A stretch of 64,000 nt of DNA from an uncultured Verrucomicrobiae bacterium (GTDB taxonomy: Bacteria > Verrucomicrobiota > Verrucomicrobiia > Chthoniobacterales > UBA10450): the NCBI GenBank assembly GCA_963772365.1, contig CAVYXA010000001.1:480001-544000 (forward strand). Direction: 5' to 3'. Shown piece after piece: positions 39,001 to 42,000 of this stretch. Position 1 is the stretch's first letter; each line of letters starts with the position of its first letter. Made by a program: the position numbers.

Positions 39001-42000
39001 GTGCAGCAGAATTTCTATCCCGGTATTCTGAAATGATTTCCCGATCAATCGGACTATGCGCTCGTAATTTTCGAGAAACTCGTGCGTATCATCGACAACC
39101 TTCTTGCCGTCGTATTTCTCGAACAACTGCGCATAGACTTTTTGCTCGGCTGGTTCGAGCTGGGTTCGCACGTTATTTTGTTCGCCGATGAAAATAAGCT
39201 GTCGGGCGGCAGTATCGTCCTCGTTCTTGAGGAAGTAATGCATCCCGAGCCGGAAATCTTTCAGACTAAACTCGCCAAAGTTCTCCCGGCTAACTGTGAA
39301 TGGATAAAAATCGTATTCCTCGAGGTTCCGACCGAATTTCCGCCTCCGCTCCTTGTATTTCCCCCAGAGAAAACCGATTGCCAGGAAAATGATCGAGACG
39401 ACGATCGAAGCGATGATATTGATACCAATTTCGCTTTGGAGAGCTTTCATTCCCGATCAAAGATTTCCGCTCAAGCTCGACAACGAAATATTTTCCAGCG
39501 TGATTTCGTTCGGTCGAGAAAGCGCATAAGCCACAGCATCGGCTACGATTTCGGGTGACATCATTTTTTCCCGGGGCCAATCACCGGCCACATAATCCCA
39601 GATCTCCGTGGCGGTGGCAGCAGGATAGATGTTGATCACGCGAATTTTGTGCTCCCGCAGTTCTTCCCGGACAGATTGAGAAAATCCTTCCAGCGCGAAC
39701 TTGCTCATGCAATACGCGCTCCAATTGGGAAAACCGGTCCTGGCCGCGACCGAGAGAATATTCACGATGCTGGACCCTGGCGGCATTTGCGGAGCGAAGT
39801 GTTGAGTTAGCAGGAACGGCGCTGTGATATTGACGCCTACCGTCTGTTCCCATTCGACGGGAGTGATTTCGCAGAATGGTTTTACAACCGCAATACCTGC
39901 GTTGTTTACCAGCAAATCAATCGCCGTGCTACCGGCATTTGCGATCAAATCGGAGACACCTGCTGGCGTGGCCAGATCGTGAAGGAGCAGAATTACTTTT
40001 GCGCAGTCCTGTTGGACTGACTTTTTCGTTTCAGCCAAAGCGATTGTGTCGCGTCCATGCAAGAGCAAGGTGACATCTTTATCGGCGAGCTTTGCAGCAA
40101 TGGCGCGGCCAATTCCGCGACTCGCACCAGTTATCAGATACCGTTTCATTTCAGGTTCGCCGCAAAGTAAATCGATTGTTGGGCGTTTCCCACAATCGCA
40201 ATCGAACGAGTTGCTGACTTACTCGACTGTCGATCTTCGGCCACAGCGTGCGCACTATGTTTTCCCCCGTGGACGGATTTTCTCGAAAATCGTCCGTCTC
40301 CAGATCGAGATGTCGATCCTGCCATGGTTCGAGCGATTCTTCGATTGCGCTTTTGAGTTTCACAAAATCATAAAGCGTTCCGCTGCGCGCGTCATAGTCC
40401 CCGCCCACGGTTGACTCGGTGAGATAGTGATGTCCGTGTCCCTGCGGGTTGTTGCATTTTCCGTAGAGCCGCGCGTTCTCGACATCCGAAAGTACCGCGC
40501 TGTGCAGGCGATGCGCAGCATCGAACGACATCCGCATTCCCAGAAAAACGCTCTCGTCATCCCACACTTCTGCGAAGAAATCTTCGCGCTCATGCAGCCG
40601 CACATTGTACAAATGCGGAAGCGCGCCGCTGACGCGCTCAAAAATGTAACCGGTCAGGCTTTCGGTCGTTACTGGGCGCTTCTTCAAATTAGAGTCGTCA
40701 TTCAAATAACGATGATCGAACTCGGCCTGGATCGATTTCATCGCTGCATCGATTTGATCGTGTCGAACCAATGGCGACCCACCCGACAGTTTCTCTGCGC
40801 GAAACGTAAGCCGGCATCGATAATGATGACCATGCGGCGATGTGGCCGCGCCAAAGAATTCCCGATTTTCTGTTTCGTTTAGATATGGCGAGACCGTCCG
40901 GCGCGCGGCTGAAAATTCCACCCAGTGGCTCGCCTCGCAGGCACCATCGGAGTAGAACGTTGCGCTTCGGTCAGCAGACTCGCTCAGGTGACAAGCGTAC
41001 AACTTTGCCTGGATATCCGAAAAGACCGGGGCAACATCGACAAACAATTGCCGAGCCACATTCTCGGTAGTCGGTGGCGAATCAGCAAAAGCGGGGTTTT
41101 GTTCGTTCAGGAATTTGTGATCGAATCCCTGCTGCAAAATTCTGGACGCTCGCTCCTTGATTTCGCTGATGTTGATGAGCATGCCCGTGGCTGTATCCAC
41201 CGGACCGGTAAAAATGAAGGAGGCGATGTAATTGCGGCCTGTCCCATATCGAGCACGACTTTCAGGACCGAATGCAATGAGGTTTTCCGCGTCGGTCCAA
41301 TCTCGCACAAACAGCCGGCGGGAGGCCGAGAATTCGAGCCGCTTGCTGACCGTCAGGAGCATGATGCAGCAAACATACCATACAGAATCGCGCAAGGTGG
41401 AACGCATCTCCGAGCGCGTTAGTAAAACATATGCGGCTTTGCCGCCAAAACTTAACATCGCGACCGGAGGTCACGATCCACCTTATTCCTTGAGCAGCGC
41501 CAGGAACTCGGAGCGCGTGCGGGCATCCTCTTTGAATGTCCCAAGAAGGCACGAGGTTTTCATCACCGAATTCTGCTTTTCCACTCCGCGCATCATCATG
41601 CAAAGATGCTTCGCTTCAACGACGACGGCAACGCCAGATGGCTGCAAGCAATCCATTAGGGACTGAGCAATCTGCGTCGTAAGATTTTCCTGGATTTGCA
41701 ATCGACGCGCGAAAACATCGACAATCCGCGCGACCTTCGAGAGCCCGATCACCTTCCCGTTTGGAATGTAAGCAACGTGCGCCCGCCCGATGAAGGGCAA
41801 CAGATGATGTTCGCACATCGAATAAAGCTCGATGTCTTTCACCAGGATGATTTCGCTCGCGTCGGAATCGAAAATCGCGTTGTTGATGATCTCGTTCAGG
41901 TCCTGGCGATATCCCTGGGTCAGGAATTCAAAAGCGCGCGCGGCGCGGCCAGGTGTGCGAAGGAGCCCCTCGCGATGTGGATCTTCACCAATCGCCTCGA

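What a model noticed while it worked through the whole genome (the two positions that open the first line are those of the whole stretch)
40151..41458. A single-chain, three-domain 6-pyruvoyl-tetrahydropterin synthase: a covalent T-fold 'trimer' with only one catalyticall [...]
g00616 encodes three tandem PTPS (T-fold) domains in one ~405-aa chain, where the characterised PTPS/QueD enzymes are ~120-140-aa subunits that assemble from identical chains. Only the third domain keeps the full catalytic set (HRLH zinc histidines and the C-x5-HGH motif); the second keeps GHHY but has lost the cysteine and the first two histidines, the first has lost all. The gene lies between GTP cyclohydrolase I (g00617) and a short-chain reductase (g00615), next to the aromatic amino acid hydroxylase, HPPD and homogentisate dioxygenase genes, i.e. 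it is the PTPS step of a tetrahydrobiopterin pathway feeding Phe/Tyr breakdown.
Evidence so far: Pfam PTPS three times: 37-169, 181-299, 309-433, E 1e-16 to 5e-23 (pfam.tsv, call 67); domain alignment and motifs, gene order g00610-g00619. Found in 14 of 16 other genomes of the family: one continuous match over residues ~13/33-435 in 13 (55-70% identity; open frames of 404-710 aa cover all three domains, so the single stop counted in 7 of them must lie at the N-terminal edge, before the likely start), two pieces in one (G012); not found as three-domain form in 30 genomes sampled from the rest of the phylum. ESM-Atlas: nearest clusters are 403-436-aa PTPS-family proteins, commonest phylum Verrucomicrobiota (109, 50, 92 members; call 158). 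AlphaFold2 with 6 sequences: mean pLDDT 91, pTM 0. [...]
(Added by a program. Inside this text positions count along the whole contig: contig position 480,001 is position 1 of the stretch shown here. "Call 12" and the like, gene names such as g00115 and contig names such as C1 are that model's own, and its searches are not shown. The text may have been shortened before it was handed on; [...] marks where a part breaks off. The agent that wrote the report below was given it as the finding of a first reader that could run no searches.)

Follow-up and report, generated by a model that had tools for sequence, protein, structure and literature searches.

The report
Three-domain single-chain PTPS enzyme
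One gene encodes three fused copies of the small pterin-synthesis enzyme PTPS, whose catalytic residues are shared out among the copies, and it sits in a phenylalanine/tyrosine breakdown cluster typical of a widespread group of soil bacteria.

Summary
Window 40151-41458 (-) is an open frame with three PTPS (T-fold) domains (Pfam E 1.8e-60). The real start is most likely Met33 (window 41362), giving 403 aa like the homologues.

- D3 has the PTPS-II signature (first Zn-His plus C-x5-HGH) and the pterin-anchoring Glu, but has lost the Asp-His dyad.
- D1 has lost Zn ligands and Cys, yet keeps Asp-His in 119 of 119 close homologues.
- D2 keeps both HGH histidines and Asp-His, but lacks the first His and Cys.
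- D1 is as conserved as D3.

In solved relatives the dyad His reaches the active site from the opposite ring. I therefore infer a covalent pseudo-trimer that dimerises head-to-head, with D1' completing the D3 site. This is untested.

AlphaFold2 gives pLDDT 96, pTM 0.92. No PDB chain covers more than about two domains.

Gene order HPPD-HGD-FolE-PTPS3-SDR-(AAAH) is conserved in Candidatus Udaeobacter and its relatives, which supports a tetrahydrobiopterin-type pathway. Related two- and three-domain PTPS forms occur in other phyla. Eight literature searches found no description.

The parts
40151..41362 (-). Likely coding sequence of the three-domain PTPS (403 aa plus stop at 40151-40153), starting at Met33 of the 435-aa ORF
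   Evidence: Most homologues are 403-404 aa. The alignment starts at MLLTVSKRLEF. Genome matches start at residue 1 of this form. Translation checked.
41363..41458 (-). In-frame upstream extension of the ORF (32 codons), probably not translated
   Evidence: Most homologues are 403-404 aa and begin at the residue matching Met33; a few carry longer, unrelated N-termini. Upstream open frames in relatives vary from 380 to 725 aa.
41457..41477 (-). Hairpin of 9 pairs, followed by a T-rich tail, between the FolE stop and the PTPS gene; it overlaps the first ATG of the ORF
   Evidence: Terminator-like consensus match only.
40949..41362 (-). Domain 1 (residues 1-138). T-fold without Zn ligands or Cys (Arg15, Glu34, Thr41, Arg43). 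It keeps Asp81-His82, Thr98/Glu100 and Glu128.
   Evidence: Aligns to human PTPS 3i2b residues 9-117, E 3.1e-17. Residue counts in 119 homologues. Secondary structure.
41117..41122 (-). D1 Asp81-His82 dyad, proposed to complete the D3 active site of a second chain
   Evidence: Present in 119 of 119 close homologues, invariant in 38 of 38 sequences of A1, and present in 17 of 18 three-domain representatives. The role in trans is inferred.
40559..40939 (-). Domain 2 (residues 142-268). It has Arg154 for the first Zn-His and Ala173 for Cys. It keeps His177-Gly-His179, Asp216-His217, Thr232/Glu234 and Glu258.
40826..40834 (-). D2 HGH motif, retained without the Cys
   Evidence: His177 in 119 of 119 and His179 in 116 of 119.
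40712..40717 (-). D2 Asp216-His217 dyad
   Evidence: Asp in 117 of 119 and His in 116 of 119.
40154..40549 (-). Domain 3 (residues 272-403). PTPS-II-type catalytic domain.
   Evidence: E 2.6e-25 to 8e-23 against the C. elegans, human and rat PTPS chains 2g64, 3i2b, 1b66. Foldseek target-normalised TM-score 0.90-0.93, rmsd 1.2-1.4 A, 35-39% identity.
40511..40513 (-). D3 His284, the first Zn ligand
   Evidence: 119 of 119. Alignment.
40430..40456 (-). D3 CNNPQGHGH: catalytic Cys303 plus Zn ligands His309 and His311 (C-x5-HGH, the PTPS-II signature)
   Evidence: 119 of 119 for Cys303, His309 and His311. Motif definition from PMC5041015.
40316..40321 (-). D3 Gln348-Asp349, standing where the Asp-His dyad should be (dyad lost)
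   Evidence: Three independent PDB alignments. In 119 homologues the first position is Q/R/K/H/E and the second is Asp in 117. The dyad is complete in the last domain of only 1 of 18 three-domain representatives.
41483..42118 (-). GTP cyclohydrolase I (FolE), directly upstream
   Evidence: Pfam E 5.1e-80; TIGR00063 261.5 bits against a cut-off of 181.6. Present in 75 of 80 related loci.
39457..40149 (-). Short-chain dehydrogenase/reductase, candidate sepiapterin reductase; its start abuts the PTPS stop
   Evidence: adh_short E 4.8e-47. Chlorobium sepiapterin reductase 2bd0 is the 7th best PDB match, E 1.4e-23, over the full length. Present in 76 of 80 related loci.
42182..43366 (-). Homogentisate 1,2-dioxygenase-like protein (weak HgmA matches)
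   Evidence: HgmA_N E 1.2e-7 and HgmA_C E 6.9e-7. Present in 71 of 80 loci.
43503..44636 (-). 4-hydroxyphenylpyruvate dioxygenase-like protein
   Evidence: Glyoxalase and HPPD N-terminal domains. Present in 62 of 80 loci.
38605..39450 (-). YheO-like PAS-domain protein, a conserved neighbour downstream of the reductase
   Evidence: PAS_6 E 5e-17. Present in 66 of 80 loci.
35570..37266 (+). Aromatic amino acid hydroxylase, the presumed user of the pterin. Here it is in two frames (35570-36661 and 36688-37266).
   Evidence: NF010657 positions 13-373 and 399-577. It is one frame of 591-651 aa in 12 of 12 relatives.

Best explanation
The gene encodes a 403-aa 6-pyruvoyl-tetrahydropterin synthase built from three fused, anciently diverged T-fold domains (21-27% identical to each other).

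Shown:
- Three PTPS domains lie in one chain.
- D3 carries the PTPS-II metal/Cys centre (His284, Cys303-x5-His309-Gly-His311) and the Glu392 anchor, but lacks the Asp-His dyad.
- D1 and D2 lack a complete metal/Cys centre but keep Asp-His, T-x-E and the Glu anchor, and are under strong purifying selection.
- The gene lies between FolE and a short-chain reductase in a conserved Phe/Tyr-catabolism cluster.

Inferred:
(a) Beta4 of each domain is joined to beta1 of the next by a four-residue turn. This reproduces the beta4-beta1' contact that holds PTPS/QueD trimers together, so the chain closes into a 12-stranded pseudo-trimeric barrel.
(b) Two chains stack head-to-head like the two trimers of PTPS. 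The dyad His of solved relatives reaches the active site from the opposite ring, so the D3 site is completed by Asp81-His82 of D1 of the partner chain. That places the two-fold axis through D2:D2' and gives two composite active sites per dimer instead of six.
(c) The enzyme converts dihydroneopterin triphosphate (made by FolE) into 6-pyruvoyl-tetrahydropterin. The adjacent reductase reduces this to a tetrahydrobiopterin-type cofactor for the clustered aromatic amino acid hydroxylase.
For: Architecture:
- Pfam PTPS x3, and three matches inside one frame.
- AlphaFold2 with 38 sequences: pLDDT 96.1, pTM 0.92. Strands 132-137 to 142-154 and 262-267 to 272-284 are joined by 4-residue linkers.
- Each domain superposes on single-chain PTPS (target-normalised TM-score 0.90-0.93).

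PTPS-II identity of D3:
- E 2.6e-25 to 8e-23 against the animal PTPS chains in the PDB sequence search; 35-39% identity in the structural alignment.
- C-x5-HGH is the published PTPS-II signature (PMC5041015, passages).
- A separate 123-aa C-x3-HGH (QueD-type) gene lies elsewhere in the genome, two genes from a radical-SAM gene.

Division of residues (n = 119):
- D3: His284, Cys303, His309 and His311 in 119; dyad positions are Q/R/K/H/E plus Asp (117).
- D1: Asp81-His82 in 119; no Zn-His or Cys.
- D2: His177 in 119, His179 in 116, Asp216 in 117, His217 in 116.

Across 18 three-domain representatives of several types:
- The first domain has Asp-His in 17 of 18.
- The last domain has the full dyad in 1 of 18 and a Zn/Cys centre in 17 of 18.
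- The first domain has a complete Zn/Cys centre in 0 of 18.
- In the Chloroflexota-type forms (P0139, Ardenticatena maritima; P0148), D2 and D3 both have Cys-HGH centres, D1 and D2 keep Asp-His and D3 does not. Only a two-fold axis through D2 pairs every live site with a dyad.
- Where D2 is fully degenerate (P0128, P0138, P0145), its dyad is gone too.

Other support:
- Trans-ring His: passages in PMC9894224 describe His68''/His71'' from the opposite protomer, beta1-beta4' ring contacts, and Zn held by HGH plus an N-terminal His.
- Selection: mean pairwise identity is 78.9% for D1, 71.2% for D2 and 78.5% for D3.
- Pathway: FolE upstream and SDR downstream in 11 of 11 family loci. In 80 species loci FolE is present in 75 and SDR in 76, with SDR directly downstream in 67 of 71 that have enough flank. 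In metagenome loci, FolE is upstream in 21 of 21 and SDR downstream in 24 of 24. AAAH is within 6 kb in 52-56 of 80. A pterin-4a-carbinolamine dehydratase is present in the genome.
Against: - No activity, metal content or oligomeric state is known.
- I could not inspect coordinates. A pTM of 0.92 would also fit an unclosed sheet.
- Bimodular QueF shows that tandem T-folds can abandon the canonical tunnel assembly (PMC5372742).
- D2 keeps HGH and Asp-His although its site lacks Cys and the first His; the model does not require that.
- One three-domain representative (P0155) has Asp-Arg in D1 although its D3 looks live, and one (P0208) keeps the dyad in D3.
- The reductase is only generically SDR. 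The sepiapterin reductase 2bd0 ranks 7th of 307 PDB matches.
- In this genome the hydroxylase gene is split by a frame change.
- G007 has the hydroxylase but no PTPS match.
- The rat numbering and the roles of Thr105/Glu107 and Glu133 are recalled from the PTPS structure papers, which I could not open.
Confidence: 0.7

Rival explanations
1. The protein works as a monomeric single ring. D1 and D2 are only a scaffold that replaces two subunits. D3 works without a trans-ring His, and the Asp-His motifs of D1 and D2 are kept for folding reasons.
For: The single chain gives a confident compact model on its own. The D-H-x-x-L-N stretch is a generally conserved PTPS motif, so it may have a structural role.
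Against: - The dyad is lost in D3, and in middle domains that are fully degenerate (P0128, P0138, P0145), but is kept in 17 of 18 first domains. A purely structural motif should not be lost in that position-specific way.
- In solved relatives the His comes from the opposite ring and belongs to the catalytic triad (PMC9894224).
Confidence: 0.13
2. It is a QueD (6-carboxytetrahydropterin synthase), as public annotation says, or another COG0720 activity (PTPS-III aldolase-like), rather than a PTPS-II.
For: The NCBIfam QueD equivalog TIGR03367 scores 112 bits, above its cut-off of 89. Sources name homologues '6-carboxytetrahydropterin synthase'.
Against: - The only Cys-bearing centre is C-x5-HGH, not C-x3-HGH or E-x2-HGH.
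- Its best PDB relatives are animal PTPS.
- A separate C-x3-HGH protein lies near a radical-SAM gene.
- No que genes lie in the cluster; instead there are FolE, an SDR and Phe/Tyr catabolic genes.
- The QueD score is summed over three domains.
Confidence: 0.07
3. D1 and/or D2 pockets are ligand sites with a role of their own, in addition to supplying residues in trans. Possible roles are pterin binding for feedback control, or a metal bridging D2 and D2' through His177, His179 and His217'. This does not exclude the best explanation.
For: - D2 keeps HGH (119 and 116 of 119), Asp-His, T-x-E and Glu258 (119 of 119), although Cys and the first His are gone.
- D1 keeps Glu128 (118 of 119).
- In A. 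baumannii QueD2 the catalytic Zn is held by the two HGH histidines plus the dyad His of the opposite protomer, without the N-terminal His (PMC9894224).
Against: Nothing direct. Arg154 and Arg15 (119 of 119) may simply fill the former metal site. D2 evolves faster than D1 and D3.
Confidence: 0.25
4. The chain adopts a non-canonical, tunnel-less assembly, as bimodular QueF does, with the active site formed between domains of one chain.
For: V. cholerae QueF has two tandem T-folds, is a homodimer without a tunnel, and has an interdomain active site (PMC5372742).
Against: - Four-residue beta4-beta1 linkers and per-domain TM-scores of 0.9 to PTPS favour the canonical sheet continuation.
- Three domains is exactly the PTPS ring number.
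- Two-T-fold chains from four-membered rings superpose poorly (query-normalised TM-score at most 0.34, rmsd 6.5-8.5 A).
Confidence: 0.08

Closest known systems
Eukaryote-type PTPS (PTPS-II): rat 1B66/1GTQ, human 3I2B, C. elegans 2G64
   Same: - D3 matches these chains at E 2.6e-25 to 8e-23 and is 35-39% identical in the structural alignment.
- It shares the CNNPxGHGH centre, the first Zn-His and the WETxNN Glu anchor.
- The T-fold is the same (target-normalised TM-score 0.90-0.93, rmsd 1.2-1.4 A).
- It takes the same place in the pathway, after GTP cyclohydrolase I and before a reductase.
   Different: - The known enzymes are 136-141-residue chains that form homohexamers with six identical sites.
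- Here there are three diverged domains in one 403-aa chain, with one Zn/Cys centre per chain.
- The Asp-His dyad is absent from the catalytic domain and kept only in the two non-catalytic ones.
Bacterial QueD (PTPS-I), E. coli 4NTK/4NTM, and QueD2 of A. baumannii
   Same: Same family and fold. Rings are held by beta1-beta4' contacts, and the dyad His comes from the opposite ring (PMC9894224). D2 has the QueD-like spacing of three residues before HGH, with Ala in place of Cys.
   Different: QueD has C-x3-HGH and is one domain per chain in two trimeric rings. QueD2 forms two tetrameric rings. The genome has its own QueD-type gene elsewhere.
Bimodular QueF (E. coli, V. cholerae 3S19)
   Same: It has tandem T-fold domains in one chain that arose by duplication. 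The catalytic elements are divided between the modules, and the N-terminal module has lost the catalytic Cys (PMC5372742). This is the closest precedent for the division of labour seen here.
   Different: It has two modules, not three, belongs to a different T-fold family with different chemistry, and assembles without a tunnel.
Urate oxidase and GTP cyclohydrolase IB (two T-folds per chain)
   Same: Adjacent T-folds in one chain sit next to each other in a ring. Foldseek aligns about 290 columns of the model to them.
   Different: They have two domains per chain in four-membered rings and superpose poorly (query-normalised TM-score 0.30-0.34, rmsd 6.5-8.5 A). No PDB chain covers all three domains.
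Two-domain (about 270-290 aa) and other three-domain (about 360-390 aa) PTPS-family proteins in metagenomes and MAGs (Omnitrophota, Margulisiibacteriota, Chloroflexota)
   Same: - Domains are positionally related: first domains group together (SH-aLRT 83), middle domains group (93) and last domains group (88).
- The first domain usually lacks Cys, and the last domain is catalytic.
- They are linked to FolE: 28 of 34 two-domain loci have FolE just downstream.
   Different: - Two-domain forms mostly keep Zn histidines and Asp-His in both domains.
- The Chloroflexota form has two live centres.
- Some forms have C-x3-HGH.
- None is characterised. The 275-300-aa 'cluster 10 QueD2' with an N-terminal domain 'of unknown function' (PMC9894224) may be related; I did not test this.

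Membership tests
PTPS/QueD family (Pfam PF01242, COG0720) | Profile match above the curated cut-off | tested here: met
   202.7 bits against 22.4, in three stretches. TIGR00039 scores 137 against 125.5.
PTPS/QueD family (Pfam PF01242, COG0720) | [quoted passage not shown] | tested here: met
   The AlphaFold2 secondary structure repeats three times. Foldseek gives a target-normalised TM-score of 0.90-0.93 to PTPS chains. This rests on a predicted model only.
PTPS/QueD family (Pfam PF01242, COG0720) | Zn site of one N-terminal His plus both His of HGH | tested here: met
   Met in D3 only (His284, His309, His311; 119 of 119). D2 has 2 of 3 and D1 has 0 of 3.
PTPS/QueD family (Pfam PF01242, COG0720) | Subunits of about 115-140 aa that form homo-oligomeric rings from identical chains | tested here: not met
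   This is one 403-aa chain with three unlike domains (21-27% identity). The PTPS-family PDB chains are 115-141 residues.
PTPS-II (biopterin-pathway PTPS) | C-x5-HGH signature | tested here: met
   CNNPQGHGH in D3. The signature is defined in PMC5041015.
PTPS-II (biopterin-pathway PTPS) | Asp-His dyad together with the Cys in every subunit (intersubunit triad) | tested here: not met
   D3 has Gln-Asp at these positions; the dyad is in D1 and D2 only. The function may be kept in trans (inferred).
PTPS-II (biopterin-pathway PTPS) | Genomic link to GTP cyclohydrolase I and a sepiapterin-reductase-type SDR | tested here: met
   FolE in 75 of 80 and SDR in 76 of 80 loci. In metagenome loci, 21 of 21 and 24 of 24. 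That the SDR is a sepiapterin reductase is inconclusive (2bd0 ranks 7th).
PTPS-II (biopterin-pathway PTPS) | [quoted passage not shown] | not testable with these tools
   This needs an enzyme assay.
QueD (PTPS-I) | C-x3-HGH signature and clustering with queC/queE | tested here: not met
   No domain has C-x3-HGH; D2 has Ala at the Cys place. No que genes lie nearby. A separate C-x3-HGH gene lies near a radical-SAM gene.
PTPS-III (folate-pathway aldolase substitute) | E-x2-HGH signature | tested here: not met
   The motif-bearing domains, D2 (SPHGH) and D3 (PQGHGH), have no Glu three residues before HGH. D1 has no HGH.
Tandem (bimodular) T-fold enzymes | Two weakly homologous T-fold modules per chain | tested here: not met
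   There are three modules here. This is the same principle but a different number and family.

The most novel reading that the evidence does not exclude
The protein is an obligate two-fold dimer of covalent pseudo-trimers.
- It has exactly two composite active sites, each built from three different domains: the Zn/Cys/Glu of D3, T-x-E of a ring neighbour, and Asp-His of D1 from the other chain.
- The D2:D2' pair on the symmetry axis has been converted into a non-catalytic metal- or pterin-binding site.
- The position-specific pattern of losses seen across all three-domain PTPS types would then be a sequence-only readout of quaternary structure.
- The two- and three-domain forms together would make an undescribed FolE-linked branch of COG0720 that supplies pterin cofactors in several little-studied phyla.
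Probability: 0.45. Interest if true: 0.65.

Novelty: new variant of a known kind. Interest (0 to 1): 0.55.

Why it matters
- PTPS is a textbook homohexamer whose active sites are shared between three subunits. A natural single-chain version, in which evolution has sorted the shared residues into different domains, is a ready-made experiment on how symmetric oligomers become asymmetric. It cuts six sites to two. It also allows mutations in one 'subunit' at a time, which the homo-oligomer does not.
- Public annotation appears to be wrong. Thousands of homologues are named 6-carboxytetrahydropterin synthase, and the summed score passes the QueD equivalog cut-off.
- Together with the conserved FolE-PTPS-reductase-hydroxylase cluster, it suggests that Candidatus Udaeobacter and kin make a biopterin-type cofactor to degrade Phe/Tyr. 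Bacterial BH4 synthesis is considered uncommon: about 50 genomes were predicted in PMC5041015.
- This group is common among soil metagenome assemblies: 411 matching stretches among species-representative genomes and 2828 90%-identity clusters at E <= 1e-5.
- It is a refinement of a known family, not a new kind of system.

Tried and rejected
- Complex prediction (two copies of the chain) was not available. The dimer model is therefore untested.
- The look-up of sequencing runs listed no run, and no RNA holder was listed.
- The search for related loci with a 12-sequence alignment of very diverse forms (A2) failed for lack of a conserved stretch. I used A1 instead. Its best 80 were all family relatives, so the context of the Chloroflexota and Margulisiibacteriota forms was not seen.
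- Rfam found nothing at gathering thresholds in the whole window.
- Promoter and terminator scans give consensus matches only.
- The search of earlier findings returned nothing for this place.
- Papers not held: Phillips et al. 2012 on COG0720, and the 1994 rat PTPS structure paper, tried by a recalled PubMed id and a guessed PMC id.
- A search for Cys42/His89/Asp88 found no paper. The roles of these residues in rat numbering are therefore recalled.
- Literature searches for a tandem or three-domain PTPS found none. They were; Udaeobacter with tetrahydrobiopterin or pterin terms; and passages read. Subscription journals and the supplements of these papers were not seen.
- I considered and rejected a recent internal duplication or an assembly artefact. 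The domains are only 21-27% identical, and the architecture recurs in 80 of 100 family genomes as one continuous frame.
- I did not attempt dN/dS, because synonymous sites would be saturated at about 70% protein identity.

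
Full report
**The object.**
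Window 40151-41458 (-) is an open frame of 435 codons. Pfam PTPS matches it three times (E 1.8e-60). A six-frame scan of the whole genome finds three PTPS matches inside this one frame, plus a single further PTPS gene elsewhere.

The frame is probably translated from Met33 (window 41362):
- Most of the best 120 of 2828 homologous 90%-identity clusters are 403-404 aa (range 401-442) at 68-79% identity.
- They align from MLLTVSKRLEF.
- Matches in relatives' genomes begin at residue 1 of the 403-aa form, while the open frame upstream varies from 380 to 725 aa.
- A terminator-like hairpin (41457-41477) overlaps the first ATG (a consensus match only).

I use 403-aa numbering below. Coordinates were checked.

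**Residues.**
I mapped each domain onto the solved PTPS chains using the HMMER alignments. The rat numbering (chain position plus 4) and the classical roles are recalled from the rat PTPS structure papers, which I could not open. Those roles are His23/48/50 for Zn, Cys42, Asp88-His89, Thr105/Glu107 and Glu133.

Passages I did read in PMC9894224 confirm for QueD and QueD2:
- Zn is held by both His of HGH plus a more N-terminal His.
- The Cys is catalytic.
- Ring contacts are beta1-beta4'.
- The dyad His (His71'' or His68'') comes from the protomer of the opposite ring.

The reference list of PMC2229834 carries the 1995 title naming an 'intersubunit catalytic triad'.

| Domain | Residues | Has | Lacks |
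|---|---|---|---|
| D3 | 272-403 | His284, Cys303-x5-His309-Gly-His311, Thr365/Glu367, Glu392 | Asp-His (Gln348-Asp349 instead) |
| D1 | 1-138 | Asp81-His82, Thr98/Glu100, Glu128 | Zn ligands and Cys (Arg15, Glu34, Thr41, Arg43 instead) |
| D2 | 142-268 | His177-Gly-His179, Asp216-His217, Thr232/Glu234, Glu258 | first Zn-His and Cys (Arg154, Ala173 instead) |

In 119 close homologues these states are almost fixed:
- D3 His284, Cys303, His309 and His311: 119 of 119.
- D3 dyad positions: Q/R/K/H/E, and Asp in 117.
- D1 Asp81-His82: 119 of 119.
- D2 His177: 119; His179: 116; Asp216: 117; His217: 116.

The domains are old copies, 21-27% identical to each other. D1 is as constrained as D3: mean pairwise identity is 78.9% against 78.5%, with 32 and 33 invariant columns. 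D2 is lower at 71.2% with 20 invariant columns.

**Structure.**
AlphaFold2 with a 38-sequence alignment gives pLDDT 96.1 and pTM 0.92. [quoted passage not shown] Only four residues separate the last strand of one domain from the first strand of the next.

Foldseek finds single-domain PTPS chains as best matches (target-normalised TM-score 0.90-0.93, rmsd 1.2-1.4 A). Two-T-fold chains (GTP cyclohydrolase IB, urate oxidase) match only poorly (query-normalised TM-score at most 0.34). No PDB chain spans all three domains.

The short linkers force beta4 and beta1 of successive domains to pair, as neighbouring subunits do in QueD rings. A closed 12-stranded pseudo-trimer is therefore the natural reading. 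I could not look at coordinates, and pTM alone does not prove closure.

**The dimer inference.**
In a dimer of trimers, each top subunit is related to its catalytic partner below by a two-fold axis, so the exchange of the dyad His is reciprocal. A homodimer of three-domain chains keeps only one of the three two-folds.

The conservation pattern picks which one. D3 (a live site) lacks the dyad, so its partner must have a dead site. That partner is D1, which is dead in every three-domain form examined (0 of 18 have a complete Zn/Cys centre) and keeps Asp-His in 17 of 18. The last domain has the full dyad in only 1 of 18.

Two further observations fit:
- In the Chloroflexota-type proteins (P0139, from the cultured Ardenticatena maritima, WP_054493579.1; and P0148), D2 and D3 are both live, D1 and D2 keep the dyad and D3 does not. 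This fits only an axis through D2:D2'.
- Where D2 is fully degenerate (P0128, P0138, P0145), its own dyad is gone too, as expected for a self-paired domain.

Exceptions are P0155 (Asp-Arg in D1) and P0208 (dyad kept in D3).

These representatives are related, so the counts are not independent trials. The complex predictor was unavailable. I rate this step at about 0.55.

Unexplained: D2 of the window's group keeps HGH and Asp-His without a Cys. A QueD2-like metal site made of two HGH histidines and the trans His is possible, but this is speculation.

**Function.**
C-x5-HGH is the published PTPS-II signature, against C-x3-HGH for QueD and E-x2-HGH for PTPS-III (PMC5041015, passages). D3's best solved relatives are animal PTPS. 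The genome's other PTPS-family gene is a 123-aa C-x3-HGH protein two genes from a radical-SAM gene, which fits QueD.

The order HPPD, homogentisate-dioxygenase-like, FolE, PTPS3, SDR, YheO-like and a convergent aromatic amino acid hydroxylase is conserved:
- FolE, SDR and HGD are present in 11 of 11 family loci.
- In 80 species-representative loci: SDR 76, FolE 75, HGD 71, YheO-like 66, HPPD 62, hydroxylase 52-56.
- In metagenome loci, FolE is upstream in 21 of 21 and SDR downstream in 24 of 24 with enough flank.

The SDR resembles Chlorobium sepiapterin reductase (2bd0, E 1.4e-23, full length), but six other SDR structures score higher. A pterin-4a-carbinolamine dehydratase gene is present elsewhere.

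I therefore assign the PTPS step of a biopterin-type pathway serving Phe/Tyr breakdown, at about 0.8. The NCBIfam QueD equivalog passes its cut-off only because three domains add up, so the public name '6-carboxytetrahydropterin synthase' is probably an over-annotation.

**Distribution.**
- Family: 89 of 100 other genomes match, in 34 of 36 genera counting the window's own genome. Of these, 80 have one continuous match covering at least residues 35-401, 8 have two or more pieces, and 1 is cut at a contig end.
- Five non-matching genomes have no PTPS-family match at all, at 87-94% completeness.
- Order sample: the own family has it in 20 of 21. One sister family has a single-domain PTPS-II in 12 of 22, and in G402 it lies beside a short hydroxylase-like match. 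Fourteen other families have none (0 of 157).
- Phylum sample: the three-domain form is in 0 of 298 genomes outside the family. One family of the same class has a single-domain C-x5-HGH PTPS in 24 of 26.
- Record titles of the best 80 of 411 matching stretches among species representatives read Candidatus Udaeobacter, Chthoniobacterales, Verrucomicrobiota, or the older names for that phylum (Verrucomicrobia, Verrucomicrobiae, Spartobacteria). Two are labelled Dormiibacterota and Nitrospirota; both are MAGs, so possibly binning errors.

These tallies include the unpublished genomes G002, G014 and G007.

**A wider clade.**
An exhaustive profile-free search of 50%-identity representatives gives 2569 hits at E <= 1e-3. 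Among the best 150 are:
- other three-domain proteins at 31-48% identity;
- forms of about 360-390 aa with a degenerate middle domain and C-x3-HGH in the last;
- forms of about 370 aa with two C-x5-HGH centres;
- many two-domain proteins of 270-290 aa.

Named members come from Chloroflexota, Omnitrophota and Margulisiibacteriota.

A quick domain tree groups first domains (SH-aLRT 83), middle domains (93) and last domains (88) across all these types. It uses 135 columns, and the deep forks are weak. Two-domain genes have FolE directly downstream in 28 of 34 loci, and an SDR beyond it in 9 of 23. The window's gene thus belongs to a FolE-linked branch of multi-T-fold PTPS proteins.

**What is known.**
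Tandem T-folds are established for urate oxidase, GTP cyclohydrolase IB and bimodular QueF. In bimodular QueF the catalytic elements are also split between modules (PMC5372742, passages). Covalent pseudo-trimers exist in other families, such as three-domain dUTPases; this is recalled and was not checked here.

PMC9894224 mentions 275-300-aa 'cluster 10 QueD2' proteins with an N-terminal domain 'of unknown function'. These may be two-domain relatives; I did not test this.

I found no description of a three-domain PTPS, or of its split catalytic set, in eight full-text searches. The key COG0720 paper (Phillips 2012) and all supplements were not seen.

**Verdict.**
This is a real and well-conserved new architectural variant of a known enzyme, with a specific, testable quaternary-structure prediction. 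It is interesting to T-fold and pterin enzymologists, and for annotating a very common soil lineage, but it is not a new kind of system.

Noticed in passing
window 35570-37266 (+), break near 36646-36700: The aromatic amino acid hydroxylase is split into two frames here (363 aa plus 192 aa). The break lies in the variable linker before its C-terminal domain. In 12 of 12 family relatives it is one frame of 591-651 aa. It could be a real frameshift, a functional split or an assembly error.
   Followed up: partly
window 37290-38546 (-): Two genes sit between the YheO-like gene and the hydroxylase: a secreted-looking papain-like protease (Peptidase_C70/AvrRpt2-like, E 6e-10) and a 219-aa protein with no Pfam match. 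Neither gave a hit in any of 80 related loci, where the hydroxylase usually follows the YheO-like gene directly. This is probably a local insertion.
   Followed up: partly
window 38605-39450 (-): A YheO-like PAS-domain protein with a hydrophobic N-terminus is a conserved member of the cluster (66 of 80 loci). It may be the cluster's regulator.
   Followed up: no
window 42182-43366 (-): The 'homogentisate dioxygenase' matches HgmA_N and HgmA_C only weakly (E 1e-7 and 7e-7) and is short at 394 aa, yet it is highly conserved in the cluster (83-96% identity in metagenome loci). It is an atypical cupin dioxygenase whose substrate is not certain.
   Followed up: no
L001 1477-1848 (own genome, G000:C1 about 1213938-1214309): The genome's single-domain QueD-type protein (CRRMHGH) has Gln where the first Zn-binding His is expected (FEAAQTL).
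   Followed up: no
L142-L190 (metagenome loci): Two-domain PTPS genes (about 800-870 nt) are followed by FolE on the same strand in 28 of 34 loci, and by an SDR in 9 of 23. Their first domain often keeps the Zn histidines but lacks Cys. Their assembly is unknown; a four-membered ring like QueD2 is a guess.
   Followed up: partly
G011, G056, G060, G061, G071, G079, G092, G096: In 8 of 89 matching family genomes the three-domain gene appears in two or more pieces. Some are at contig ends, and some are adjacent pieces in different frames or with a TGA. These could be frameshifts, splits between domains or assembly errors.
   Followed up: no
G402:C120:1684-3548: In a sister family of the order, a single-domain C-x5-HGH-type PTPS match lies about 0.8 kb from a short hydroxylase-like match. 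The PTPS-hydroxylase link therefore also exists with the one-domain form.
   Followed up: no
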